From the NCBI GenBank assembly GCA_902620425.1, contig CACNHX010000001.1:414903-478902 (forward strand): a stretch of 64,000 nt of DNA, given 5' to 3'. The notes beneath the pieces were generated by a model. That model saw only the letters and a list, made by a program, of their open reading frames with translations. It searched no databases and was not told where the DNA came from. Below are positions 29,156 to 45,951 of this stretch, piece by piece. Origin of the DNA: an uncultured Alphaproteobacteria bacterium. GTDB lineage: Bacteria; Pseudomonadota; Alphaproteobacteria; HIMB59; GCA-002718135. Position 1 is the stretch's first letter. Every line of letters starts with the position of its first letter. The translations under genes were made by a program, and so were the position numbers.

Positions 29156-29696
29156 AAAAAAATCTTCGTCAAATAGAACTACTCATAGGGAGATTTTAGA
29201 AGAAATTATAAGAGTCGATCATGCTGGTGAATATGGTGCCACTAAAATATATGATGGTCAAATAGCAGTTTTTGGGAAAAGTTCAAAGCTTGGCAAAACT
29301 ATTCAACATATGGCTGATCAGGAACAAGAGCATATTGATAAATTTAATGAATTAATATTAGAGCATAGAGTTAGACCAACTGCTCTTTTACCTTTGTGGA
29401 ATGTTGCGGGTTACGCGCTTGGCGCATCCACTGCCTTAATGGGTGAAAAAGCTGCCATGGCATGTACTGTTGCTGTTGAAAAAGTAATTGGTGAACATTA
29501 CCAAGAACAATTAGAGCTCTTAGGAGATGACCATAAAGATTTAAAAAAAACAATTTCCAAATTCCGAGATGATGAACTTGAACATCATGATATTGGAATA
29601 GAACATGATGCAGAAAGTGCGCCAGGGTATAAAATTATGTCAAAAGTAATAGAACTTGGATGTAAAACGGCAATCGCTATATCAAAAAAAATTTAA
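29127..29696 (+). CDS. coq7: Demethoxyubiquinone hydroxylase (Coq7/Clk-1 diiron family)
   Basis: RVDHAGEYGA, QEQEH, AMACTVAVE, DELEHH. Start refined to ATG 29127. Confidence 0.9.
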   Translation: MALKKKKTSKKKSSSNRTTHREILEEIIRVDHAGEYGATKIYDGQIAVFGKSSKLGKTIQHMADQEQEHIDKFNELILEHRVRPTALLPLWNVAGYALGASTALMGEKAAMACTVAVEKVIGEHYQEQLELLGDDHKDLKKTISKFRDDELEHHDIGIEHDAESAPGYKIMSKVIELGCKTAIAISKKI

Positions 29697-30247
29697 TTTT
29701 CTAATTCTGTATCCCAATATAAATAGTCTCTCCAAGTCTCATGCAAAAAATTAGGAGGGAAATTTCTACCATTATTTTGTAATTGAATTGACGATGGTCG
29801 AAGAGGTTTTTTAAAAAGTTTCATATCTGTATTCTGTATAAGTTTTCTTCCTTTTTTTAAATTACAGGATGTGCACGCAGAGACAACATTTTCCCAAGTA
29901 GTTTTTCCATTCAGACATTTAGGAACTAGATGGTCAAATGTTAGTTCGTTTGCAGGAAAACGATTGGTACAATACTGACAAGTAAAATTATCTCTCAAAA
30001 AAACGTTAAAACGTGTAAAAGCAGGTCTTCGTTGTGGAGTAACATAATCTTTTAAAGCTATTACACTTGGTAACTTAAAAGTAAGATTTGGAGAATGAAC
30101 TTCTTGTTCGTAATTTTCGATTACTGAAACTCTTTCTAGAAAAACGGCTTTGATGGCATCTTGCCATGAACATAAAGAAAGTGGGTAATAAGATAGCGGC
30201 CGAAAATCAGCATTAAGAACCAAAGCTGGATTTTCTGCGGTACTCAT
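29693..30247 (-). CDS. HNH endonuclease family protein
   Basis: RFNVFLRDNFTCQYC, TFDHLVP, WENVVSACTSCNLKKG. Confidence 0.88.
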   Translation of the reverse strand: MSTAENPALVLNADFRPLSYYPLSLCSWQDAIKAVFLERVSVIENYEQEVHSPNLTFKLPSVIALKDYVTPQRRPAFTRFNVFLRDNFTCQYCTNRFPANELTFDHLVPKCLNGKTTWENVVSACTSCNLKKGRKLIQNTDMKLFKKPLRPSSIQLQNNGRNFPPNFLHETWRDYLYWDTELEN

Positions 30248-30311
30248 TTTAGTTTCTACTCACCCAAGTCATAATATTCAGATAGTAATATAATATGAAG
30301 ATTCGATTACT

Positions 30312-30986
30312 TTAAATATTTTTTTTAATAAAATTTTGGAAAAAAGTTATTGTTTCTTGTGACATTGTATGCTCGTCAGTTTTAATAAGATAATTTTCAT
30401 AATTGTAGTTATACTTTTTTAAGACTTCAAGTGACTCGTTGTAATTGGAAATAGGCAAAACAGCATCTTGAGCTCCATGAGAAATAAAAATTGGTGTTTT
30501 TAAAAATGCATTATTAGGCTTATGCTCTTTTGATATAATTCTTGAAGATATAAGTGCTAAGCCTGCCAACTGATTTTGAAGTATTTGCCCAAGTTCAAAT
30601 GCCATCATACCTCCTTGAGAAAAACCCATAACAAAACAATCGGTCATTTTTAAATTTAAATTTTCTAATAAAAGAGAAATAGAGTTATAAATTTTTTCAA
30701 CATTCTCAAAAATTTTCTTTTTGGCTACATCATATTCTTTTACACCAGCATTAGAAATATGAGTGCCATTGAGATATAATTGAAACCATTCATGCCCCAT
30801 AGGATAATCTTGAATTGTATCTGGTGCATTTAAAGCAACATATTTCATCCCAAATTCATCTTGATCAATTAAATTTGCAATTTGAATAAAATTAGTAGCG
30901 TTATCTCCATATCCATGAAGCATAATCATCAATTTTTTTGGATTTTGATGTTTAGTAATTGACGGGCCTTTTAAAATATCAACCAT
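30312..30986 (-). CDS. Phospholipase/carboxylesterase (alpha/beta hydrolase)
   Basis: LHGYG, GFSQGG nucleophile elbow, HGAQDAVLP, distal His (EHTMS). Confidence 0.85.
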   Translation of the reverse strand: MVDILKGPSITKHQNPKKLMIMLHGYGDNATNFIQIANLIDQDEFGMKYVALNAPDTIQDYPMGHEWFQLYLNGTHISNAGVKEYDVAKKKIFENVEKIYNSISLLLENLNLKMTDCFVMGFSQGGMMAFELGQILQNQLAGLALISSRIISKEHKPNNAFLKTPIFISHGAQDAVLPISNYNESLEVLKKYNYNYENYLIKTDEHTMSQETITFFQNFIKKNI

Positions 30987-31048: not shown

Positions 31049-31243
31049 ATGAGCACAATGCAAATAATACTTGTCTTGTTCATGGCAGCAACTCTAGCAG
31101 TTGTTGTTGTTGGTGTTATTGCCATGGCAGTAAATGGAAAGCTTAACAAAAATCACAGCAATAAACTAATGCGGTTGAGAGTACTATTTCAGGCAATTGC
31201 TATATTTGTCTTTGTTGTAATTGTTTGGTTAGCTAGAAATTAG
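31049..31243 (+). CDS. Twin-transmembrane-helix small protein (HIG1-domain-like)
   Basis: Two hydrophobic helices joined by SNKLMRLRVLFQ. Confidence 0.8.
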   Translation: MSTMQIILVLFMAATLAVVVVGVIAMAVNGKLNKNHSNKLMRLRVLFQAIAIFVFVVIVWLARN

Positions 31244-31298: not shown

Positions 31299-31481
31299 AT
31301 GGGCATTCACTTTAATCACAAATCTAAAGCGGGAGACCGCAAAATGCAGAAAGAGCTTAAACTAAAAATGAAAGCTGAGGAACGCAAAAGAAAACGTGAA
31401 GAGCAAGAAAAGCTTAAAATGGAAGAGGAAATGCGTAAACTCGAAGAACTTACAAGACCTGATAAAGAAGAAAATCGGTAA
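31299..31481 (+). CDS. Small highly charged hypothetical protein
   Basis: 60-aa Lys/Glu/Arg-rich ORF filling an intergenic gap; no recognised family. Confidence 0.6.
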   Translation: MGIHFNHKSKAGDRKMQKELKLKMKAEERKRKREEQEKLKMEEEMRKLEELTRPDKEENR

Positions 31482-31519: not shown

Positions 31520-32335
31520 CTAACTGGGTAAAGGATAATGTTCGGCTATAAATTTCTTTAGAATTTCTAATGTTTGATCTGCTTCTTCTAGGAGCATCAT
31601 ATGACCACAATCTTCAATGATCTTTACTTCCGATCCTTTAATATAATCAGCAAGAATTTTTCCATCTTTTAAACGGCACATTCTATCTTGTGCACCTAAT
31701 ATAGAAAGAGTAGGTAAATCCAATTTCTTAGCAACCTCAGGTCCATTTTTATAATTATCACATGCTCTAAAATCAACACCTAGAGTATCTTTAATTTCTT
31801 TATTTTGAACAATCATGGAACCAACATTTAGGTGATATAAACCTGGAACAGGATGGCCTCCAAAATGTCCTGCAGGCCCGTGCGCAAAATCCATCATAAG
31901 ATCAACGGCCTTAGGATTACTCTCTTCAGCAAGCCTTAATAGTTCAGGATTCATTGGAATTGCAGATGCGCCACCCATAAGAGTTAACGTTTTAATTTTT
32001 TCTGGGTGTTGAGCAACACATTCCATTGTTACAAGACATCCTTGGGAATGTCCAACTAGTGAAGCTTCTTTACATCCAACTGCTCCAATTACATCACCAA
32101 CCCAGTTTCCCATTTCTTCAATAGTTTTTAGACTTTCACCAGAAGAAAGTCCGTGACCTGGTAAATCAACGGCTAAAACGCTGTATCCACGAAATGCAAA
32201 GTAGCGTGTTTGTAAAACCCAAACCATGTGACTTAGTCCACTACCGTGAACGAAGATTATAAGAGGTTTGTTTTTATCAAAAGGTCTGCCTCCAGTGGAG
32301 GCAAACGTATCAATTCCGCGAACTTTAAACTTCAT
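31520..32335 (-). CDS. Alpha/beta-fold hydrolase
   Basis: FVHGSG, DLPGHG, GHSQG, catalytic Asp/His (GAQDRM, CGHMM). Strand verified as minus. Confidence 0.87.
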   Translation of the reverse strand: MKFKVRGIDTFASTGGRPFDKNKPLIIFVHGSGLSHMVWVLQTRYFAFRGYSVLAVDLPGHGLSSGESLKTIEEMGNWVGDVIGAVGCKEASLVGHSQGCLVTMECVAQHPEKIKTLTLMGGASAIPMNPELLRLAEESNPKAVDLMMDFAHGPAGHFGGHPVPGLYHLNVGSMIVQNKEIKDTLGVDFRACDNYKNGPEVAKKLDLPTLSILGAQDRMCRLKDGKILADYIKGSEVKIIEDCGHMMLLEEADQTLEILKKFIAEHYPLPS

Positions 32336-33646
32336 TTATTTGTTTGCAACTAAACGAGGTTTTTTTGCAGCTCTAAATCCATCTTCGAAATCGTTTACGA
32401 TATCTTCAAAGTCTTCTAGGCCAACAGACAATCTAATCATATCATGAGATAGTCCAGCAAATTTTAAAGTTGCCTCATCCATTTGTGAGTGCGTTGCAGA
32501 TGCTGGATGTATAACTAGTGTTCTCGCGTCACCTACATTTGCTAAATGAGATGCAAGCTTAACATTATTAATGAAAGCTGCACCTGCTTCTTTCCCACCT
32601 TTAATTCCAAAGGCAATCATTGATCCAGTTCCTTTAGGAAGAATTTTTTTTGCTAGTTCCTTATCAGGATGTCCTGGTGCACTTGCATGGGATACCCAAG
32701 CGACACTTTCATGATTAGATAAATACTCAACCATCTTTAAAGCATTGGAGCAATGTTTTTCCATACGAAGAGAAAGAGTTTCAAGTCCGTGTAAAATGTT
32801 CCATGCATTTTGAGGAGCTAAGCAAGGTCCCATGTCTCTCATTCCTTCAGCTCTTGCCATCATTGTAAACGCTGTTGGGCCAAATTCTTCTGCAAATGAC
32901 AATCCATGATAGCCTTCATAAGGTTCTGTCATTGAAGGAAACTTATCATTTTGCATCCAATCAAATGTTCCACCTTCAACTAAAATACCAGCCATAGAAG
33001 AACCATTACCACTCATCCATTTAGTTAAAGAGTGAACTACAAGGTCAGCTCCGTGTTCAAAAGGTCTACACAAATAAGGAGTTTGATACGTACTATCAAT
33101 TATTAGTGGGATACCTGCTTCTTTTGCTATGTTTGAAACTTCAGGCATATTCATCAATTCATTACCAGGATTACCAACAAGCTCACCAAAAATACCTTTG
33201 GTATTTGGTTGAATTGCTTTTTTAAAACCTTCTGTATCTCTTGGTTTTACAAAAGTTGTTTTAATACCAAACTTAGGAAGCGTTAATCTAAATAAATTTA
33301 CAGTTCCACCGTAAAGCTGAGAAGAAACAACCATGTGATCACCGGCGTTACAAAGGGTCATAATAGTTAAAAATATTGCGCTCATTCCAGATGCAGTTGC
33401 AAGAGCAGCTGTTCCTCCTTCAAGTGCACAAACTCTTTCTTCAAGGACTTGTACTGTTGGGTTGGACATACGACTATAAATATGACCACCTCTTTCTAAA
33501 TTAAAAAGTGCTGCCGCATGATCAACATCATCAAACATATATGAAGTTGTTTGATAAATTGGTACTTGCCTTGAGCCAGCGTTTTTACTTGGTTGATAAC
33601 CAGCGTGTAGACTTAGTGTGTCAAATTTATAAGTTTTTGGATCCAT
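32336..33646 (-). CDS. metY: O-acetylhomoserine aminocarboxypropyltransferase (sulfhydrylase)
   Basis: VPIYQTTSY, IYSRMSNPT, HSLTKW (PLP lysine), HLANVGD, HPASATH, IRLSVGLE. Confidence 0.87.
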   Translation of the reverse strand: MDPKTYKFDTLSLHAGYQPSKNAGSRQVPIYQTTSYMFDDVDHAAALFNLERGGHIYSRMSNPTVQVLEERVCALEGGTAALATASGMSAIFLTIMTLCNAGDHMVVSSQLYGGTVNLFRLTLPKFGIKTTFVKPRDTEGFKKAIQPNTKGIFGELVGNPGNELMNMPEVSNIAKEAGIPLIIDSTYQTPYLCRPFEHGADLVVHSLTKWMSGNGSSMAGILVEGGTFDWMQNDKFPSMTEPYEGYHGLSFAEEFGPTAFTMMARAEGMRDMGPCLAPQNAWNILHGLETLSLRMEKHCSNALKMVEYLSNHESVAWVSHASAPGHPDKELAKKILPKGTGSMIAFGIKGGKEAGAAFINNVKLASHLANVGDARTLVIHPASATHSQMDEATLKFAGLSHDMIRLSVGLEDFEDIVNDFEDGFRAAKKPRLVANK

Positions 33647-35278
33647 TTATAACTCCTTTGCTTTTGTTCTTAATTCAAACTTTTGTATCTTCCCAGTTGA
33701 TGTTTTTGGTAATTCACCAAAGATTACATGCTTTGGTCTTTTAAATCCAGCCATATTTTCTTTGCAAAACTGAATTATATCATCTTCTGTGGCATTTTTT
33801 CCAGGAGCTAGTTCTACAAAAGCACATGGTGTTTCACCCCACTTATCATCTGGCTTGGCAACTACTGCAACCAAGGAAACAGCTGGGTGTTTAGCAACAA
33901 CATTTTCCACTTCCACAGATGAAATATTTTCTCCTCCAGAAATTATGATATCTTTCGACCTATCTTTTATTTGAATATATCCATCAGGATAGACTACAGC
34001 TAAATCACCAGAGTGAAACCATCCTTTTTTCATAGATGTTTCAGTTGCCTCTTTATTTTTGTAATATCCTTTCATTACAACATTTCCTCGAATTAAAATC
34101 TCTCCCATGGTTTCTCCATCCATTGGAACTTTTTCATAAGTCTCTGGATCTGCTACACAAACTTCTTCAGTGTTTGGATAACGAACACCTTGTCTTGCTT
34201 TAATATCAGCTTTTTCAGATTTTGATTGTGATTCCCATTCTTCATTCCAAGCACACTGAAGAATATGACCATATGTTTCAGTTAATCCATATACGTGCAT
34301 AACTTCAAAACCTAAGTTATCCATCTTTTCAAGTATTGCACTCGTTGGTGGAGCCCCAGCAGTTAATACGTATACTTTATGATTTATTTCTTTTTTATCT
34401 TTCTCATCTGCGTTAGCAATTAAACTTAAAACTATAGGAGCACCTCCAAAATGAGTTACTTTATATTTATCTATTAAGTTATAAATATCTTTTGCAACAA
34501 TGTATCTGCAGCAAATAATCTTTGCATGTATTAAAGCAGCTGTCCAAGGATACCCCCATCCGTTACAGTGGAACATTGGAACTGTATAAAGAAATGTTAA
34601 TTTATTAGGCATGTTCCATGCCGTAACACTTCCTGTTGACATTAAATATGATCCACGGTGGTGATACACAACGCCTTTTGGTTTACCAGTTGTACCTGAT
34701 GTATAGCTTAGTGAGATTGCTTGCCATTCATCTTTAGGTAAAGACCAATTATAATTATCATCACCTGTTTGTAAAAATTCTTCATATGTCATTTCACCAA
34801 TTTTTTCACCCTCACCATCTTTAAAAACTGCCTGATCATCATGAATGTCAATAATAGGAATATTCTTCCCATATATTTTTAAAGCCTTTTTCATTGTAGG
34901 TGAAAATTGAGTATCAGTTATAAGAAGTTTTGCATCACTATGATCTAGAATATACGCAATTGTATCTGCATCAAGTCTAGTATTGATCGTATTAATAACG
35001 CCACCAGTCATTGGGATAGAATAATGTGCTTCGAATAATTCTGGAGTATTTGCCGCTATGATTGAAACGGTACTTCCTTTTGTAATTCCTTTTTTTGCTA
35101 ATGCACTAGCAAACTTGGTACATCGATTATAGGTTTCAAGCCAAGTGTAACTTCTTTTTCCATAAACTAAAGAGTCATAGTTTGGATAAATATCTTTCAC
35201 GCGAGTTATAAAACTTAATGGTGATAGTGGAACAAAATTGGCTGAATTTTTATCTAGGTTTGTATCAAAATTACTCAT
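33647..35278 (-). CDS. dmdB: Acyl-CoA synthetase, 3-methylmercaptopropionyl-CoA ligase (DmdB)-like
   Basis: YTSGTTGKPKG AMP-binding motif, YGLTE, PKTSTGKIQK. N-terminus (LDKNSANFVPLSPL) and GSYLMSTGSVTAWNMP resemble Pelagibacter DmdB as recalled; substrate not proven. Confidence 0.7.
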   Translation of the reverse strand: MSNFDTNLDKNSANFVPLSPLSFITRVKDIYPNYDSLVYGKRSYTWLETYNRCTKFASALAKKGITKGSTVSIIAANTPELFEAHYSIPMTGGVINTINTRLDADTIAYILDHSDAKLLITDTQFSPTMKKALKIYGKNIPIIDIHDDQAVFKDGEGEKIGEMTYEEFLQTGDDNYNWSLPKDEWQAISLSYTSGTTGKPKGVVYHHRGSYLMSTGSVTAWNMPNKLTFLYTVPMFHCNGWGYPWTAALIHAKIICCRYIVAKDIYNLIDKYKVTHFGGAPIVLSLIANADEKDKKEINHKVYVLTAGAPPTSAILEKMDNLGFEVMHVYGLTETYGHILQCAWNEEWESQSKSEKADIKARQGVRYPNTEEVCVADPETYEKVPMDGETMGEILIRGNVVMKGYYKNKEATETSMKKGWFHSGDLAVVYPDGYIQIKDRSKDIIISGGENISSVEVENVVAKHPAVSLVAVVAKPDDKWGETPCAFVELAPGKNATEDDIIQFCKENMAGFKRPKHVIFGELPKTSTGKIQKFELRTKAKEL

Positions 35279-35316
35279 CTGTTTCCTAAAAGGATCAAAT
35301 ACTACAAGAAATTAAT

Positions 35317-37551
35317 TTAATTTACTAATGGTTTTCCAGTTTCAAGTGTATGTTTTATTCGCTCTTGAGTTTTAGGCATCTGGATAAGTCTCATGAAAGC
35401 TTCCAATTCAAGATTATAAAGATCATCTTCACTTAATTCATTATCAATATTTGTATTTCCACCACTAAGTACAAAAGCAATTTGCTTACCTACTTCTAAC
35501 CCGTGGTCTAAGATTTTATTTTCATTATATAGTGCTTCAAGTTTTTCAAACATTTTATCTCTGACAGCACTACCGCCTAAATTGAATTTAGGTTGAGATG
35601 GTTTTTCATAATCTCCCTCAATATTATTTAATAAATCGATAGCTGTTGATAATTGTCTGTCTCTATTTATTACCACCTTATCCTTTTCTAAAAAGAATTG
35701 ATTTGGCAGCGCTTCATTTGGTGAGGTAGCAGTAATAGCATAACCAATAAGATCAAAAACTTTCATAGAAGCATGTTCAGAATTTTCTTTACCTTCTGGA
35801 GTTTGTAACCAACGCCACAGCATTTCCTTACAACCCCCACCAGCAGGAATGAGTCCAACTAAAGATTCAACTAGTCCAAGAACAACATTTGTATGAGCAA
35901 CGTTATAATCACAATGCAATACCACTTCAAAACCACCGCCAATAGCAAGTCCTGATGGCGCAGCAATAAAAGGCTTATCTGCATATTTTATTTTTTTACA
36001 CGTTTGTTGGAAATCAATTATAAATTTTTCAATTTTAGACCATTCATTATTTTTAGCAAATTCCATGACATAATTTAAATTTACACCAGCAGAAAATTGC
36101 ATTGCATCATTAATCACAATTGTGCTTTTATTATTTTGAGCAGCTTCTTTTAAAGCTAACATAGAGTCAGTATCTAAAGCGTTTGCCTTAGTAGTAAATT
36201 CAACAACCTGATATGATGAAGCATTTTTAATATTAGCAGAAGGGTTCTCAAAAGTTTTTTGTAAATTTAAAGATCTTAAATTATCAATACTTGATTCTAA
36301 ATATCCTGGTCTTTTTTTAAATTCAAAAACTCCCTTTAGATCTTTAAAGAAGTTAATATCAGTATTTTGATCAATAAAATTTTTTGTATCAATATTTGAA
36401 AGCATTTCAAAAGGGCCAACAGTCCAATTAAAACCTAATCTTAGTGCATCATCTATGTCTATATATTTTGATGATACATCAGGGATTAAATATGCAGCAT
36501 ACCTAATTACTTTTGTCAGAATTGATTTTGCATATTCACCATATTTGTCTTTTCTTTGAATGAGTTTATTTATGTCAATTTTATCTCCGATACCTAAATT
36601 AATTTTCTGACTTGGGTGATACTCGCCAGTTTCTAAATTAATTGCTTCAAGAATTTTTTTACCATCAGATTTATTCATTCTATAAAAACCACCCTTACCT
36701 TTTCTTCCTGTATACCCAGTCTCAATAAGTTTTGTGACCAATGGAATTTCTTGTGCAACCTCGTGGAAAGGATCTTCTTTTGGGAGTTCTTTGATAAAAC
36801 TTTTTAAAACATCAGCCATCAAATCGATACCAATTAAATCGTATAGCCCAAAAATTCCAGTCTTCGGGATACCCATTGGTCTTCCAAATACTGCATCAGC
36901 TTCTTCAATTGATATCTTCATTTTAAAAGCTTCAGTCATAGCAACTTGCATTGCATAAACTCCAATTCTGTTTCCAATAAATCCTGGAGTGTCGTTACAA
37001 ATAATGACACCTTTACCAAGTTTTTCATCACAAAATTGTTTTAATAAATTTATTTTTTCAATATCATTAACTTCTTCAGTTACTATCTCGAGCAATGCCA
37101 TATATCGAACTGGGTTAAAAAAATGGGTAATGCAAAAATTTTTTTTCATTTCATCTGACATATTTGCAGATAAGATTTTCAATGGAATTGTAGATGTATT
37201 AGATGAAATTATAGAATTGTTCTTTCTTGTAGTTTGAATTTTATCATAAATGTTATGTTTAATATCTATTCTCTCAACAACAGCCTCCACAACCCAATCA
37301 GCTTCTGCAACTTCATTAAAGTCATCCTCAATATTTCCAACCTTAATTAATTCTGCTTTGTTTTTTTCTACTAAAAGTGGAGGTCGTGATTTTATAATTC
37401 TTTCTTTAGCGTTTTCTGTAATTTGGTTTCTAGATCCTTCTTTTGAAGGTAAGTCTAGAAGTGTAACATCAATATTAGCATTTGCTATTTGGGCTGCGAT
37501 TCCACTGCCCATAGTGCCAGATCCTATTACTACTACTTTTTTAATATTCAT
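35317..37551 (-). CDS. 3-hydroxyacyl-CoA dehydrogenase/enoyl-CoA hydratase fusion (FadN-like)
   Basis: GSGTMGSGIA, EAVVE, SSNTSTIP, HFFNP, DTPGFIGNRIG; C-terminal crotonase domain (FSAGVNL, GGGFE). Confidence 0.88.
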   Translation of the reverse strand: MNIKKVVVIGSGTMGSGIAAQIANANIDVTLLDLPSKEGSRNQITENAKERIIKSRPPLLVEKNKAELIKVGNIEDDFNEVAEADWVVEAVVERIDIKHNIYDKIQTTRKNNSIISSNTSTIPLKILSANMSDEMKKNFCITHFFNPVRYMALLEIVTEEVNDIEKINLLKQFCDEKLGKGVIICNDTPGFIGNRIGVYAMQVAMTEAFKMKISIEEADAVFGRPMGIPKTGIFGLYDLIGIDLMADVLKSFIKELPKEDPFHEVAQEIPLVTKLIETGYTGRKGKGGFYRMNKSDGKKILEAINLETGEYHPSQKINLGIGDKIDINKLIQRKDKYGEYAKSILTKVIRYAAYLIPDVSSKYIDIDDALRLGFNWTVGPFEMLSNIDTKNFIDQNTDINFFKDLKGVFEFKKRPGYLESSIDNLRSLNLQKTFENPSANIKNASSYQVVEFTTKANALDTDSMLALKEAAQNNKSTIVINDAMQFSAGVNLNYVMEFAKNNEWSKIEKFIIDFQQTCKKIKYADKPFIAAPSGLAIGGGFEVVLHCDYNVAHTNVVLGLVESLVGLIPAGGGCKEMLWRWLQTPEGKENSEHASMKVFDLIGYAITATSPNEALPNQFFLEKDKVVINRDRQLSTAIDLLNNIEGDYEKPSQPKFNLGGSAVRDKMFEKLEALYNENKILDHGLEVGKQIAFVLSGGNTNIDNELSEDDLYNLELEAFMRLIQMPKTQERIKHTLETGKPLVN

Positions 37552-37655
37552 GTGAGTTCTATAAAGGTGAGCTTATATAAGAAAAATTTGCTGTATGAAA
37601 ATAATTTAAGCATAAGAGTGGAAATTAATATAAATATCTCTTATAGGCGCGCAAA

Positions 37656-44126: not shown

Positions 44127-45275
44127 ATGAAAACAAAATTTACTACTGACACAAAACTTGAAAGCGAAATAGCCTATTTCCAGAATATTAATTTAAAACT
44201 AGAATCAGGAGATATAATAGATAGTTTTAAACTAGCATTCAAAACATATGGCAAATTAAATCCTGATAAAACTAATGCTATTCTTGTTTGCCATGCTTTA
44301 ACTGGAGATCAATATGTTGCTGGGAATAATCCCATTACTGGGAGAGAAGGTTGGTGGTCTAGAATGGTTGGGCCTAATAAACCAATTGATACAAACAAAT
44401 TTTTTGTAATTTGCTCAAATGTACTCGGCGGTTGTGCTGGCTCAACGGGTCCTAAAGAGTTACAAAATGGAAGTGATATTGCATATGGTGGTAATTTTCC
44501 TTCCGTAACAATAAAAGATATGGTGAAGGCTCAATCTTTATTGATTGAAAATTTAAATATAGAGAAGTTATTTTCTGTCATTGGTGGTTCGATGGGAGCA
44601 ATGCAAGCGCTTCAATGGGCAATCGATTTTCCAGATAAAATTTTAAATATAATACATATTGCGGGCGCGTTAAAACATTCGGCTCAAAATATTGCATTTC
44701 ATGAAGTTGGGCGACAGGCAATAATGAGTGATCCTATTTGGAAAAATGGAAAGTATTTTGAAAATAATGAAGTGCCAGAAAGAGGTCTATCAGTAGCAAG
44801 AATGATTGCGCATATCACATATTTATCCGAAAATGCAATGCATAGAAAATTTGGAAGAAAACTTCAATCAAGAGATATTATTTCTTTTGGATTTGATGCT
44901 GATTTTCAAGTTGAGAGTTATCTGAGATATCAAGGTAAATCATTTGTTGAAAGATTTGATGCAAATTCATATCTTTATTTAACAAGGGCTATGGATTATT
45001 TTGATCATGATGAAACATTTAGAAAAAATATTGAGTTTAGTCATAATCCAAATAATCATTTAAAATATTTAATTGTCTCATTTACCTCGGATTGGTTATT
45101 CCCTACAATAGAAAGTAAAATGATTGTAAATCAATTAAATTCTCTATCAAGAGAAGTAAGCTTTCTAGAAATTGATACTGATAAAGGGCATGATAGTTTT
45201 TTATTAGAGGAACCACAGTTAGATGATGTAATAAAAGGTTTCCTAACAAACAACTTTGCGAAAATAGATGAATAA
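44127..45275 (+). CDS. metX: Homoserine O-acetyltransferase
   Basis: CHALTGD, GGSMGAMQA, RFDANSYL, SDWLFP, GHDSFLL. Confidence 0.93.
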   Translation: MKTKFTTDTKLESEIAYFQNINLKLESGDIIDSFKLAFKTYGKLNPDKTNAILVCHALTGDQYVAGNNPITGREGWWSRMVGPNKPIDTNKFFVICSNVLGGCAGSTGPKELQNGSDIAYGGNFPSVTIKDMVKAQSLLIENLNIEKLFSVIGGSMGAMQALQWAIDFPDKILNIIHIAGALKHSAQNIAFHEVGRQAIMSDPIWKNGKYFENNEVPERGLSVARMIAHITYLSENAMHRKFGRKLQSRDIISFGFDADFQVESYLRYQGKSFVERFDANSYLYLTRAMDYFDHDETFRKNIEFSHNPNNHLKYLIVSFTSDWLFPTIESKMIVNQLNSLSREVSFLEIDTDKGHDSFLLEEPQLDDVIKGFLTNNFAKIDE

Positions 45276-45951
45276 AATTAATAGCATAAGAAAAGATTGG
45301 TCTCTTATTGAAACACTTATCGCAGAAGATAGAAAAATCCTAGATATTGGATGTGGTGATGGCGGTCTTATGGAACAATTAGAAAATAATCGTAATGCGA
45401 TAACTCACGGCATTGAATTAAATAGAGACCTAGCTGCAAATGCTATTGCAAGAGGTTTCAATGTTGTACATGGAAATGCCGAATTAGATTTGTCCCAATA
45501 TTCAAATAATAGTTTTGATTATGTAATTTTAAGTCAAACTTTACAAGCAATGATGAAGCCTAAAGATATTCTGTCTGAATTATTAAGAATAGGATCAAAA
45601 GCAATAGTTTCTTTTCCTAACTTTGGACATTGGAAAATAAGATTACAGCTTTTAATATCTGGAAGAATGCCAGTAACAGAAAGTTTACCTTATACATGGT
45701 ATGACACACCTAACATTCATTTTTTTACAATTAAGGATTTTTTGAATTTGTGTAATGAAATGAATATTGTAATTGAAAAAAGTATTGGATTAACATCAAA
45801 AGGTAAGCAATTTGATATAAGTGAATCAATTACTGGAGTTAATTTTTTCACTCACGAAGCTATCTTTTTATTAAGTTATAAAAATTTTGAACCAATAAAA
45901 ATTAAATCATCAAAAAAAGTTTTTGCAAAAAATTCTGTTATTGCAAATTAG
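45268..45951 (+). CDS. metW: Methionine biosynthesis protein MetW
   Basis: LDIGCGDG, SQTLQA, SFPNFGHW, WYDTPNIH; follows metX. Confidence 0.92.
   Translation: MNKINSIRKDWSLIETLIAEDRKILDIGCGDGGLMEQLENNRNAITHGIELNRDLAANAIARGFNVVHGNAELDLSQYSNNSFDYVILSQTLQAMMKPKDILSELLRIGSKAIVSFPNFGHWKIRLQLLISGRMPVTESLPYTWYDTPNIHFFTIKDFLNLCNEMNIVIEKSIGLTSKGKQFDISESITGVNFFTHEAIFLLSYKNFEPIKIKSSKKVFAKNSVIAN

What the first reader, a model, noticed from the sequence alone, without database searches (positions are those of the whole stretch)
31520..37551. Coupled dmdB-like ligase, metY and alpha/beta hydrolase operon: candidate MMPA/methanethiol-to-methionine module
Seen: ligase/metY (33647|33646) and metY/hydrolase (32336|32335) abut with zero gap, downstream of a FadN-like dehydrogenase/hydratase. 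Established: DmdB activates methylmercaptopropionate from DMSP demethylation, the pathway releases methanethiol, and MetY-type sulfhydrylases can join methanethiol to O-acetylhomoserine, supplied by MetX (44127). Inference: an operon coupling MMPA breakdown to direct methionine synthesis, with the hydrolase as an unassigned step (e.g. thioesterase) and FadN perhaps doing the hydration step. No dmdA or dmdC is in the window.
Basis: partly seen in the sequence, partly recalled or inferred. Interest (0 to 1): 0.65.

Follow-up and report, generated by a model that had tools for sequence, protein, structure and literature searches.

The report
Sulfur-salvage operon joining DmdB and MetY
In an abundant open-ocean bacterium of the HIMB59/AEGEAN-169 group, the enzyme that can make methionine from methanethiol is encoded in one tightly packed operon with counterparts of the SAR11 genes that degrade the DMSP product methylmercaptopropionate and with an unstudied hydrolase that follows metY throughout the Alphaproteobacteria, which gives testable candidates for the unresolved last step of a globally important sulfur pathway.

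Summary
Four co-directional genes (FadN-type dehydrogenase/hydratase, acyl-CoA ligase, metY, alpha/beta hydrolase) abut exactly as described, and a Shine-Dalgarno site for metY lies inside the ligase's last codons. The ligase fails NCBI's curated DmdB model. It is nevertheless the sister clade (65-69% identity) of the ligase in the SAR11 cluster dmdC-ligase-(hydrolase)-dmdA. The hydrolase is the counterpart of the uncharacterised SAR11 "mhpC" gene. About 65 species-level genomes of the HIMB59 order keep ligase-metY-hydrolase with gaps of 0 or ±1 nt, and one also carries dmdC. The genome has two dmdA genes elsewhere. It has no sulfite reductase, no methanethiol oxidase and only one metY. Two results are new here. 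First, metY-hydrolase is an ancient pair: metY lies beside the hydrolase in 46 of 47 alphaproteobacterial genomes, and most of these lack dmdA. Second, a FadN-type gene, sometimes only its dehydrogenase half, lies beside that pair in 8 of 16 dmdA-positive genomes and 0 of 23 dmdA-negative ones. The hydrolase's reaction is still open, and its link is to MetY rather than to DMSP alone. This is a new variant of a known pathway cluster.

The parts
35317..37551 (-). FadN-type bifunctional enzyme (744 aa): N-terminal 3-hydroxyacyl-CoA dehydrogenase and C-terminal enoyl-CoA hydratase. It is the first gene of the operon.
   Evidence: Pfam finds 3HCDH_N, 3HCDH and ECH_1. Both crotonase catalytic Glu motifs (GGGFE, LVE) align with 3-hydroxybutyryl-CoA dehydratase 5JBW. 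It is 58-60% identical to the FadN upstream of dmdC in SAR11 loci L006/L013 and in L141. It is the only FadN in the genome.
33647..35278 (-). Short/medium-chain acyl-CoA ligase, the orthologue of the SAR11 dmd-cluster ligase (DmdB/'fadD'). It is the candidate MMPA-CoA ligase.
   Evidence: It scores 841 bits on NF006020 (cut-off 677) and 336 bits on NF005426 DmdB (cut-off 822). It forms a sister clade (support 100/99) to the SAR11 ligases that lie between dmdC and dmdA. The His237/Trp241 gate and Lys530 are conserved relative to Ruegeria DmdB 6IHK, with 11 of 17 mutagenised residues shared.
33653..33658 (-). Shine-Dalgarno AAGGAG for metY, inside the last codons of the ligase gene (translational coupling).
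   Evidence: The sequence reads ...GCA AAG GAG TTA TAA ATG.... Gaps of 0/+1/-1 nt are conserved in 65 related loci.
32336..33646 (-). MetY, O-acetylhomoserine sulfhydrylase (436 aa). It is the only copy in the genome and the candidate enzyme for capturing methanethiol.
   Evidence: It scores 647.2 bits on NF006004 (cut-off 636) and 594.6 bits on TIGR01326 (cut-off 495.1). Its only paralogues are a CGS/CGL-type enzyme and MetC at 23-25% identity. No SAM riboswitch was detected.
31520..32335 (-). Uncharacterised Ser-Asp-His alpha/beta hydrolase (271 aa). It is an ancient partner of metY and the counterpart of the SAR11 'mhpC' gene between dmdB and dmdA.
   Evidence: The triad is Ser97/Asp217/His245. 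Family-specific conserved residues are W39, W78, W150, D188, A191-C192, M219 and E250. No curated family is met. metY lies immediately upstream in 46 of 47 alphaproteobacterial genomes examined. The closest solved structure is AF-Est2, 5FRD. The AlphaFold model has pLDDT 86, and fold matches are generic esterases and enol-lactonases.
37552..37655 (.). Intergenic region of 104 nt, divergent with argH; presumed promoter region of the operon.
   Evidence: ORF map and sequence. No Rfam element was found. The promoter scan was no better than chance.
44127..45951 (+). metX-metW (homoserine O-acetyltransferase and its partner), which supply O-acetylhomoserine. They lie in a separate transcription unit about 10 kb away.
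   Evidence: NF001209 scores 510.5 bits (cut-off 331) and TIGR02081 scores 235.1 bits (cut-off 189.5).

Best explanation
The four genes form one operon. It joins the CoA-dependent breakdown of methylmercaptopropionate (MMPA, the product of DMSP demethylation) to the capture of the released methanethiol as methionine.

Proposed route:
- DmdA (two copies elsewhere in the genome) makes MMPA.
- The ligase, an orthologue of the SAR11 dmd-cluster ligase, forms MMPA-CoA.
- The genome's single long acyl-CoA dehydrogenase, a paralogue of DmdC encoded next to fadA, forms methylthioacryloyl-CoA.
- FadN's crotonase domain hydrates it, which leads to methanethiol release. FadN's dehydrogenase domain and/or the hydrolase may take part in this step or the next one.
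- MetY, translated from the same mRNA directly after the ligase, condenses methanethiol with O-acetylhomoserine from MetX/MetW to give methionine and acetate.

The hydrolase is an ancient, translationally coupled partner of MetY. Its exact reaction is not known.

Shown: gene order, translational coupling, orthology to the SAR11 cluster, conservation across the order, the genomic presence or absence of the other pathway genes, and the statistical link between FadN adjacency and dmdA.

Inferred: every substrate assignment. In this 1.5-Mb genome the same ligase, FadN, dehydrogenase and thiolase probably also serve ordinary short-chain fatty acids.
For: Orthology and synteny. SAR11 loci show leuB-dmdC(587 aa)-ligase-hydrolase-dmdA(602 bits, cut-off 410)-asd. 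The HIMB59-order and SAR11 ligases are sister clades with support 100/99, and their hydrolases fall in one clade with support 100/99. The published SAR11 cluster is drawn as dmdA-mhpC-fadD-mmgC (PMC3160333).

Conservation. There are 59 loci with fadN-lig-metY-hyd, 6 with lig-metY-hyd at contig ends, and 1 with fadN-dmdC-lig-metY-hyd. Gaps are 0/±1 and 0/-4 nt. The metY SD sequence lies inside the ligase.

Independent re-clustering in other lineages. G136 has dmdA-like-metY-hyd-FadN-ligase. G297 and G150 have dmdA divergent from metY-hyd-FadN.

Association with dmdA. A FadN/HCDH gene is adjacent to metY-hyd in 8 of 16 dmdA-positive and 0 of 23 dmdA-negative genomes (Fisher p=2e-4). By family the count is 5 of 12 against 0 of 20 (p=0.004).

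Genome context. There are two dmdA genes over the cut-off, a dmdA-OsmC-enoyl-CoA hydratase cluster, no NIR_SIR sulfite reductase, no SBP56 methanethiol oxidase and a single metY. The ligase is the only short/medium-chain candidate; the others are Acs, acetoacetate-CoA ligase and a FadD-like enzyme.

Literature. The model DMSP -> MeSH -> MetY + O-acetylhomoserine -> methionine is accepted for Pelagibacter, and DmdD is missing there (PMC5069961).
Against: - The ligase scores far below the curated DmdB cut-off and shares only 11 of 17 functionally tested residues with Ruegeria DmdB.
- DmdB/DmdC-type enzymes are broad-specificity fatty-acid enzymes (PMC5395565). Here they are the genome's only beta-oxidation set.
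- metY is the sole housekeeping copy. The metY-hydrolase pair occurs in 62 genomes without dmdA.
- The PRK08162-type ligase also lies within 6 kb of metY-hyd in 5 of 23 dmdA-negative genomes, so the link may concern another acid.
- There is no SAR11-type DmdC in this genus.
- dmdA is not in the operon.
- In Ruegeria only 33-50% of methionine comes from direct methanethiol capture (PMC7157515).
Confidence: 0.6

Rival explanations
1. Neutral juxtaposition. fadN-ligase are ordinary short-chain fatty-acid beta-oxidation genes, and metY-hydrolase is the ordinary methionine-synthesis pair. In a streamlined genome they were packed into one transcription unit without any shared sulfur chemistry.
For: metY-hyd is an ancient pair independent of dmdA. 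The ligase, FadN, ACAD and FadA are the only beta-oxidation enzymes in the genome. PRK08162-type ligases are widespread in non-marine Proteobacteria. DmdB/DmdC enzymes are generalists (PMC5395565).
Against: The same gene families re-cluster in different orders in at least four lineages: HIMB59 order, SAR11, G136 and family f151. FadN/HCDH adjacency to metY-hyd is seen only in dmdA-positive genomes (p=2e-4). dmdC joins the operon in L141. Translational coupling of ligase to metY is kept across an order-level divergence.
Confidence: 0.2
2. The hydrolase does not act in MMPA-CoA breakdown at all. It is a general helper of MetY. Candidate reactions are hydrolysis of homocysteine thiolactone, of N-acetylhomoserine (a rearrangement product of O-acetylhomoserine), of homoserine lactone, or of S-methyl/thio-acid thioesters formed non-enzymatically from sulfide or methanethiol and acyl-CoAs. 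Its presence in dmd clusters would then simply follow metY, and in SAR11 it would be a remnant left after metY moved away.
For: metY is immediately upstream in 46 of 47 alphaproteobacterial genomes. 62 of 78 carriers lack dmdA. SAR116 has bhmT-metY-hyd, a pure methionine context. 7 of 17 SAR11 dmd clusters lack the hydrolase. Fold neighbours include enol-lactonase and AHL-lactonase-type esterases.
Against: In SAR11 it is kept with 4-nt overlaps between dmdB and dmdA although metY is elsewhere. FadN/HCDH sits directly beside it in dmdA-positive genomes only. Its closest solved relative binds CoA with the pantetheine pointing into the active site (PMC4861933).
Confidence: 0.35
3. Acetate-recycling loop. 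The PRK08162-type ligase re-activates the acetate released by MetY to acetyl-CoA for MetX. This would explain why the ligase lies near metY-hyd even in dmdA-negative genomes.
For: The ligase lies within 6 kb of metY-hyd in 5 of 23 dmdA-negative genomes (P about 8e-9 by chance). From my own memory, not checked here, plant members of this ligase family (AAE7/ACN1) use acetate and butyrate.
Against: The genome has a canonical acetate-CoA ligase (1054 bits). In SAR11 and L141 the ligase sits with a long acyl-CoA dehydrogenase and FadN, which have no role in acetate activation.
Confidence: 0.08
4. The hydrolase is a shortened MetX-like homoserine O-acyltransferase that supplies O-acetylhomoserine to MetY.
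For: It has the alpha/beta-hydrolase fold with a Ser-Asp-His triad like MetX, and it is translationally coupled to metY. Several first-stage notes proposed this idea.
Against: Every carrier genome already has a canonical acyltransferase. MetX is over the cut-off in 51 of 78 genomes, and MetA is present in 25 of the other 27. The two exceptions are one 68%-complete genome and one with a split MetX-like gene. The window itself has metX-metW. The hydrolase has no similarity to MetX models at E<=0.001.
Confidence: 0.05

Closest known systems
DMSP-demethylation cluster of Ca. Pelagibacter (SAR11): dmdA - alpha/beta hydrolase ('mhpC') - dmdB ('fadD') - dmdC ('mmgC') (PMC3160333). From my memory of Reisch et al. 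2011 and Bullock et al. 2014, the locus tags are SAR11_0246-0249 and the recombinant SAR11 DmdB and DmdC were active; neither paper was held.
   Same: The ligase is orthologous (65-69% identity, sister clade). The hydrolase is orthologous (37-43% identity, same clade). Some SAR11 subclades have an orthologous FadN (58% identity) upstream of dmdC. Neighbouring genes overlap or abut.
   Different: Here metY is inserted between the ligase and the hydrolase, while dmdA and dmdC are absent from the operon. This genus has only a paralogue of dmdC at 47-49% identity. In SAR11, metY lies elsewhere behind a SAM-V riboswitch (PMC5069961); no riboswitch is present here.
Ruegeria-type DmdB (MMPA-CoA ligase; NCBIfam NF005426; structure 6IHK/6IJB, PMC6850173)
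   Same: Both belong to the ANL adenylate-forming superfamily and have similar length. The His/Trp gate, the catalytic Lys and most CoA/ATP residues are conserved.
   Different: The match to 6IHK is weak (246.7 bits). The score on the curated model is 336 bits against a cut-off of 822. Residues equivalent to Pro333, Lys438 and Trp443 differ. The ligase belongs to the PRK08162 subfamily.
DmdD / AcuH, the crotonase-type methylthioacryloyl-CoA hydratases that finish the pathway in roseobacters
   Same: FadN's C-terminal domain is a crotonase with both catalytic glutamates. An ECHDC3-like hydratase also follows dmdA-OsmC elsewhere in the genome.
   Different: DmdD both hydrates and hydrolyses the substrate and needs no dehydrogenase. 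Here the hydratase is fused to a 3-hydroxyacyl-CoA dehydrogenase, and a separate serine hydrolase is co-encoded.
Direct capture of methanethiol by O-acetylhomoserine sulfhydrylase (Pelagibacter model PMC5069961; Ruegeria isotope study PMC7157515)
   Same: The same enzyme family (MetY) and the same proposed reaction with O-acetylhomoserine from MetX.
   Different: In those organisms metY is not physically linked to MMPA-degrading genes. Here it is translationally coupled to the ligase.
AF-Est2 carboxylesterase of Archaeoglobus fulgidus (PDB 5FRD, PMC4861933)
   Same: It is the closest solved relative of the hydrolase (profile E 2e-33), with the same fold and triad. AF-Est2 holds CoA with the pantetheine pointing into the active site.
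   Different: The two share about 25% identity. AF-Est2 has no thioesterase activity on acetyl- or succinyl-CoA. Its CoA-proximal Cys172 aligns 6 residues before the family-conserved Cys192 of the hydrolase.
FadN (B. subtilis) / FadB (S. aureus) dehydrogenase-hydratase fusions of beta-oxidation
   Same: The same domain order, with the dehydrogenase at the N-terminus and the hydratase at the C-terminus.
   Different: The score on NF052272 is 485 bits against a cut-off of 999. This subtype is found next to dmdC/dmdB or metY-hydrolase, and in some dmdA-positive genomes it is replaced by a dehydrogenase-only homologue.

Membership tests
DmdB, 3-(methylthio)propionyl-CoA ligase (NCBIfam NF005426, Ruegeria type) | Score at or above the curated whole-protein cut-off (822 bits) | tested here: not met
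   335.8 bits. No other gene in the genome reaches the cut-off either.
DmdB, 3-(methylthio)propionyl-CoA ligase (NCBIfam NF005426, Ruegeria type) | Residues shown by mutagenesis to bind MMPA, ATP or CoA in R. lacuscaerulensis DmdB | tested here: inconclusive
   11 of 17 are conserved, including His231, Trp235, Arg432, Lys434, Asp435, Gly440-Glu442, Glu474, Lys523 and Lys526. Those that differ are Gly302/303 (register ambiguous), Trp326->Tyr, Pro333->Gly, Lys438->Ile and Trp443->Asn.
SAR11-type DmdB (ligase of the Pelagibacter dmd cluster) | Orthology: same clade, and conserved neighbourhood with dmdC, dmdA and the hydrolase | tested here: met
   Sister clades with support 100/99 at 65-69% identity. 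The shared neighbours are the hydrolase, FadN and (in L141) dmdC.
SAR11-type DmdB (ligase of the Pelagibacter dmd cluster) | MMPA-CoA ligase activity | not testable with these tools
   This needs an enzyme assay. Activity of the SAR11 enzyme is recalled from Reisch 2011 and Bullock 2014, which were not held.
MetY, O-acetylhomoserine sulfhydrylase | Curated HMM cut-offs (NF006004 at 636 bits; TIGR01326 at 495.1 bits) and the Cys/Met PLP fold | tested here: met
   647.2 and 594.6 bits, and PF01053 at 418.9 bits. The PLP lysine motif SLTKW is present in the translation.
MetY, O-acetylhomoserine sulfhydrylase | Use of methanethiol rather than sulfide in vivo | not testable with these tools
   The evidence is indirect only: no sulfite reductase, no SBP56 methanethiol oxidase and a single PAPS-reductase-family gene.
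DMSP demethylation pathway (DmdA-DmdB-DmdC-DmdD/AcuH) | dmdA present in the genome | tested here: met
   Two genes at 531 and 528.5 bits, cut-off 410, on contigs C10 and C7.
DMSP demethylation pathway (DmdA-DmdB-DmdC-DmdD/AcuH) | dmdC orthologue present | tested here: inconclusive
   There is only one long ACAD. It is 47-49% identical to SAR11/L141 DmdC and 66% identical to a paralogue that sits with fadA and fadN2. The same holds in same-genus genome G209.
DMSP demethylation pathway (DmdA-DmdB-DmdC-DmdD/AcuH) | DmdD or AcuH hydratase | not tested
   No DmdD-specific model was run. The candidates are the FadN crotonase domain and an ECHDC3-like hydratase beside dmdA.
FadN/FadB dehydrogenase-hydratase fusion | Domain order 3HCDH_N-3HCDH-ECH with the catalytic Glu pair | tested here: met
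   Pfam domains. GGGFE and LVE align to the catalytic Glu residues of 5JBW. The curated S. aureus FadB model is not met (485 bits against 999).
Known alpha/beta-hydrolase families (BioH, PcaD, MenH, PHA depolymerase, MetX) | Curated cut-off of any named family | tested here: not met
   The best score is 94.7 bits against a cut-off of 307. BioH scores 60 against 207, PcaD 80 against 256 and MenH 54 against 209. There is no MetX hit. Database names are generic.
metY-linked alpha/beta hydrolase family (unnamed; defined here) | Ser-Asp-His triad plus W39, W78, W150, D188, A191-C192, M219 and E250, with metY immediately upstream | tested here: met
   Conservation in at least 44 of 47 sequences. metY is upstream in 46 of 47 genomes.

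The most novel reading that the evidence does not exclude
In DmdD-lacking marine Alphaproteobacteria (HIMB59 order, SAR11, SAR116 and others) the demethylation pathway may end by a beta-oxidation-like oxidative route. FadN would hydrate methylthioacryloyl-CoA. Its dehydrogenase half would oxidise the 3-hydroxy-3-(methylthio)propionyl-CoA to an S-methyl thioester of malonyl-CoA. The serine hydrolase would then cleave that thioester, giving malonyl-CoA and releasing methanethiol directly beside its translationally coupled partner MetY. This would conserve the carbon as malonyl-CoA instead of acetaldehyde plus CO2. It would also explain why the dehydrogenase half, the hydrolase and MetY travel together specifically in genomes that carry dmdA.
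Probability: 0.15. Interest if true: 0.85.

Novelty: new variant of a known kind. Interest (0 to 1): 0.62.

Why it matters
Demethylation is thought to take the larger share of oceanic DMSP and decides whether its sulfur enters the food web or leaves as gas. In SAR11 the step that releases methanethiol is unassigned because DmdD is absent (PMC5069961). The HIMB59/AEGEAN-169 group is another very abundant oligotroph, and the main genomic description of it does not mention sulfur, methionine or DMSP at all (PMC10308909).

This operon links MMPA activation and processing physically to the methanethiol-fixing enzyme. It also points to two concrete unstudied proteins: the FadN-type dehydrogenase/hydratase and the metY-linked hydrolase. 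Both can be cloned and assayed to settle how methanethiol is produced and handed on.

The hydrolase is also a conserved, unexplained partner of MetY in about a quarter of alphaproteobacterial genomes. Its function therefore bears on methionine biosynthesis in general.

Tried and rejected
- SAM riboswitch or other RNA element in front of the operon or of metX: none was found at the gathering threshold or at E<=1.
- Promoter and terminator pattern scan: no better than shuffled sequence.
- Finding Ruegeria pomeroyi DmdB1/DmdB2 by genome position, using a Ruegeria alba homologue as query: R. pomeroyi did not appear. This ligase subtype is rare in roseobacters, so no direct tree with the characterised roseobacter isozymes could be built.
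- Papers by Reisch (2011) and Bullock (2014): not held. Statements on the activity of the SAR11 DmdB therefore rest on my memory.
- 'Short MetX' reading of the hydrolase: rejected as unnecessary, because MetX or MetA is present in 76 of 78 carrier genomes.
- Fold search of the hydrolase model: only generic esterases, haloperoxidases and enol-lactonases came back, with no specific function.
- est224 and the HNH gene downstream as members of the operon: rejected, because two convergent small ORFs separate them from the hydrolase.

Full report
**Observation.** The window is C1:414903-478902 of a 1.54-Mb, 19-contig, roughly 31% G+C genome. The nearest public relatives are single-cell genomes and MAGs labelled HIMB59 or 'uncultured Alphaproteobacteria'. 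Both downstream junctions are TAA|ATG with no spacer. The ligase's last codons (AAG GAG TTA TAA) carry a perfect Shine-Dalgarno sequence 6 nt before the metY start. The unit is bounded upstream by divergent argH, across a 104-nt spacer. Downstream it is bounded by two small convergent ORFs. The esterase and HNH genes further down therefore do not belong to it. No riboswitch or other Rfam element occurs between 30000 and 46000.

**What the genes are.**
- MetY passes two curated models (647 bits against 636; 595 against 495).
- The ligase passes the PRK08162 'acyl-CoA synthetase' model (841 against 677). It scores only 336 bits on NCBI's DmdB model (cut-off 822).
- FadN has an N-terminal 3-hydroxyacyl-CoA dehydrogenase and a C-terminal crotonase. 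Both catalytic glutamates of the crotonase are in place.
- The 271-aa protein is a Ser97-Asp217-His245 alpha/beta hydrolase. It meets no named family, and databases give it only generic names.
- metX-metW lie about 10 kb away, as stated.

**The ligase is the SAR11 dmd-cluster ligase.** Its closest relatives outside the HIMB59 order are Pelagibacteraceae proteins at 65-69% identity. In those genomes the gene order is leuB - 587-aa acyl-CoA dehydrogenase - ligase - 258-aa hydrolase - DmdA (602 bits, cut-off 410) - asd. This is the cluster drawn by Sun et al. 2011 as dmdA-mhpC-fadD-mmgC (PMC3160333). It is treated as DmdA/DmdB/DmdC in Pelagibacter physiology papers (PMC5069961). In a maximum-likelihood tree the HIMB59-order and SAR11 ligases are sister clades with support 100/99. 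Against the structurally studied Ruegeria DmdB (6IHK), 11 of 17 mutagenised residues are conserved. The protein is therefore not a member of the roseobacter-type DmdB family as curated. It is an orthologue of the SAR11-type enzyme. From my memory of Reisch 2011 and Bullock 2014, the SAR11 enzyme has MMPA-CoA ligase activity; neither paper was held.

**Conservation.** Searching with the hydrolase returned about 65 species-level genomes of the HIMB59 order:
- 59 have fadN-ligase-metY-hydrolase.
- 6 have ligase-metY-hydrolase at a contig end.
- 1 (L141) has fadN-dmdC-ligase-metY-hydrolase, and its dmdC is 61% identical to SAR11 dmdC.

Gaps are 0/+1/-1 nt for ligase->metY and 0/-4 nt for metY->hydrolase. 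The condition 'genes unlinked in relatives' is therefore not met. In SAR11, 10 of 17 loci carry the hydrolase in or next to the dmd cluster, and 7 have dmdC-ligase-dmdA without it. Two subclades also carry a FadN (58% identical to the window's) upstream of dmdC.

**Rest of the pathway in this genome.**
- Two dmdA genes exceed the curated cut-off. One is followed by an OsmC-like gene and an ECHDC3-like enoyl-CoA hydratase.
- The only DmdC-like gene lies after a fadA thiolase and is cut by a contig end. It is 47-49% identical to SAR11/L141 DmdC and 66% identical to a paralogue. The same-genus genome G209, which is 96% complete, has only that paralogue.
- There is one metY, one FadN and one ligase of this type. 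The other CoA ligases are Acs, acetoacetate-CoA ligase and a FadD-like enzyme.
- No sulfite reductase domain and no SBP56 methanethiol oxidase were found. The control genomes gave hits for both searches. This agrees with the lack of assimilatory sulfate reduction reported for strain HIMB59 (PMC5069961).

MetY is therefore the only recognisable enzyme that could consume methanethiol. Sulfide from sulfate is not available to it.

**The hydrolase is an ancient partner of MetY.** A profile of the family finds one copy in 78 of 301 evenly sampled alphaproteobacterial genomes. metY lies immediately upstream in 46 of 47 genomes where the flank could be read, including 55-70% G+C genomes of 3-6 Mb. 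Only 16 of the 78 have a dmdA over the cut-off. SAR116 genomes have bhmT-metY-hydrolase. The pair is therefore not a DMSP invention. The idea that the hydrolase is a short MetX is unnecessary, because 76 of 78 carriers have MetX or MetA. The SAR11, HIMB59-order and SAR116 hydrolases form one clade with support 100/99. The SAR116 sequences are nested among the HIMB59 ones, which suggests transfer of the pair. The nearest solved structure is AF-Est2, which binds CoA in its active-site groove but has no thioesterase activity on common CoA esters. The AlphaFold model (pLDDT 86) matches only generic esterases and enol-lactonases. Beyond the triad, the family conserves W39, W78, W150, D188, A191-C192, M219 and E250.

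**A specific link to dmdA.** Other lineages rebuild the same neighbourhood in different orders. G136 has dmdA-like-metY-hydrolase-FadN-ligase. G297 and G150 have dmdA divergent from metY-hydrolase-FadN. I extended the flanks for 16 dmdA-positive and 23 dmdA-negative carriers. A FadN-type gene lies directly beside metY-hydrolase in 8 of the 16 and in none of the 23 (Fisher p=2e-4). By family the count is 5 of 12 against 0 of 20 (p=0.004). In three of these genomes the neighbour is a 435-463-aa protein that matches only the dehydrogenase part of FadN (residues 1-397), with no hydratase nearby. The dehydrogenase half is therefore the recurrent partner. The canonical DmdD route does not need a dehydrogenase. 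The PRK08162-type ligase lies within 6 kb of metY-hydrolase in 5 of 23 dmdA-negative genomes as well (P about 8e-9 by chance). Its link to metY may therefore be older or broader than DMSP.

**Interpretation.** The operon co-expresses MMPA activation (ligase) and processing of methylthioacryloyl-CoA (FadN) with the methanethiol-fixing enzyme (MetY) and MetY's ancient partner hydrolase. DmdA, a DmdC-like dehydrogenase and MetX/MetW are encoded elsewhere. All substrate assignments are inferences. The same enzymes probably also handle short fatty acids. The hydrolase's reaction is open. It could act at the thioester stage of the MMPA route, on a CoA or an S-methyl thioester. It could instead be a general MetY helper acting on a thiolactone, a lactone, N-acetylhomoserine or stray thioesters. 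The most novel reading still allowed is an oxidative, beta-oxidation-like end of the pathway, in which FadN's dehydrogenase makes an S-methyl thioester that the hydrolase cleaves next to MetY (probability about 0.15).

**Novelty.** The flow DMSP -> methanethiol -> MetY -> methionine is established as a model (PMC5069961; PMC7157515). The SAR11 cluster, including its hydrolase, has been drawn (PMC3160333). I found no description of the HIMB59-order operon, of metY-hydrolase as a conserved pair, or of the dmdA-specific FadN/HCDH adjacency. The AEGEAN-169 genome paper does not mention DMSP, sulfur or methionine. No held paper contains SAR11_0247. Earlier AI notes of this scan reached similar readings on other genomes. 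I re-derived their main claims independently, but those notes are not independent evidence. Verdict: a real, conserved and functionally suggestive new variant of a known pathway cluster, with two good candidates for an open biochemical step. Interest 0.62.

Noticed in passing
window 31049-31243 (+) and 31299-31481 (+): Two small ORFs converge on the 3' end of the operon. One encodes a 64-aa protein with two hydrophobic helices. The other encodes a 60-aa, extremely Lys/Glu-rich protein. In some relatives (L132-L135) this spacer holds inserted ORFs on the opposite strand: 673-809 aa in L132-L134, and 260 and 426 aa in L135.
   Followed up: no
window 29693-30986 (-): An Abhydrolase_2 carboxylesterase (224 aa) and an HNH endonuclease (184 aa, weak IscB/Cas9d-type HNH hit) are conserved downstream of the operon throughout the HIMB59 order. 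The esterase is unusually variable (33-96% identity) next to near-identical neighbours.
   Followed up: partly
G000:C10:26594-28997 (locus L093 6594-8997): One dmdA copy is followed by an OsmC-like gene and an ECHDC3-like enoyl-CoA hydratase (PRK08139, 370 bits against a cut-off of 313). This hydratase is a second candidate for methylthioacryloyl-CoA hydration. In Pelagibacter, osmC is one of the genes induced by sulfur limitation.
   Followed up: partly
L283 10067-11458, L284 5492-6799, L287 5560-6873: Stand-alone 435-463-aa homologues of the dehydrogenase half of FadN (36-37% identity, no hydratase domain) lie divergently beside metY-hydrolase in dmdA-positive high-GC Alphaproteobacteria.
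   Followed up: partly
L162-L169 (SAR116) compared with the HIMB59-order loci: In SAR116, metY (72-75% identity) and the hydrolase (69-70%) are nested within the HIMB59-order clade, although the two orders are distant. This suggests lateral transfer of the metY-hydrolase pair. In L163 and L164 the gene upstream of the pair is a betaine-homocysteine methyltransferase; the others have a 309-366-aa ORF in that position that I did not annotate.
   Followed up: partly
L007-L010, L012, L014, L042 (SAR11): Seven of 17 SAR11 dmd clusters have dmdC-ligase-dmdA with no hydrolase between them, so the hydrolase is dispensable there or encoded elsewhere in those subclades.
   Followed up: no
L053 1960-4521 (Rhodospirillaceae MAG): Here metY-hydrolase is followed by a YbgC/FadM-type hot-dog acyl-CoA thioesterase, and a PRK08162-type ligase lies 2.5 kb away on the other strand.
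   Followed up: no
L294 (G048:C1:1588205-1588987): This is the only genome of 47 in which the hydrolase orthologue has no metY within 8 kb.
   Followed up: no
L005 (contig binned as 'Desulfobacula'): A ligase 68% identical to the window's, branching at the base of the HIMB59+SAR11 clade, sits on a 143-kb contig assigned to a Desulfobacula MAG. This is either mis-binning or a transfer.
   Followed up: no
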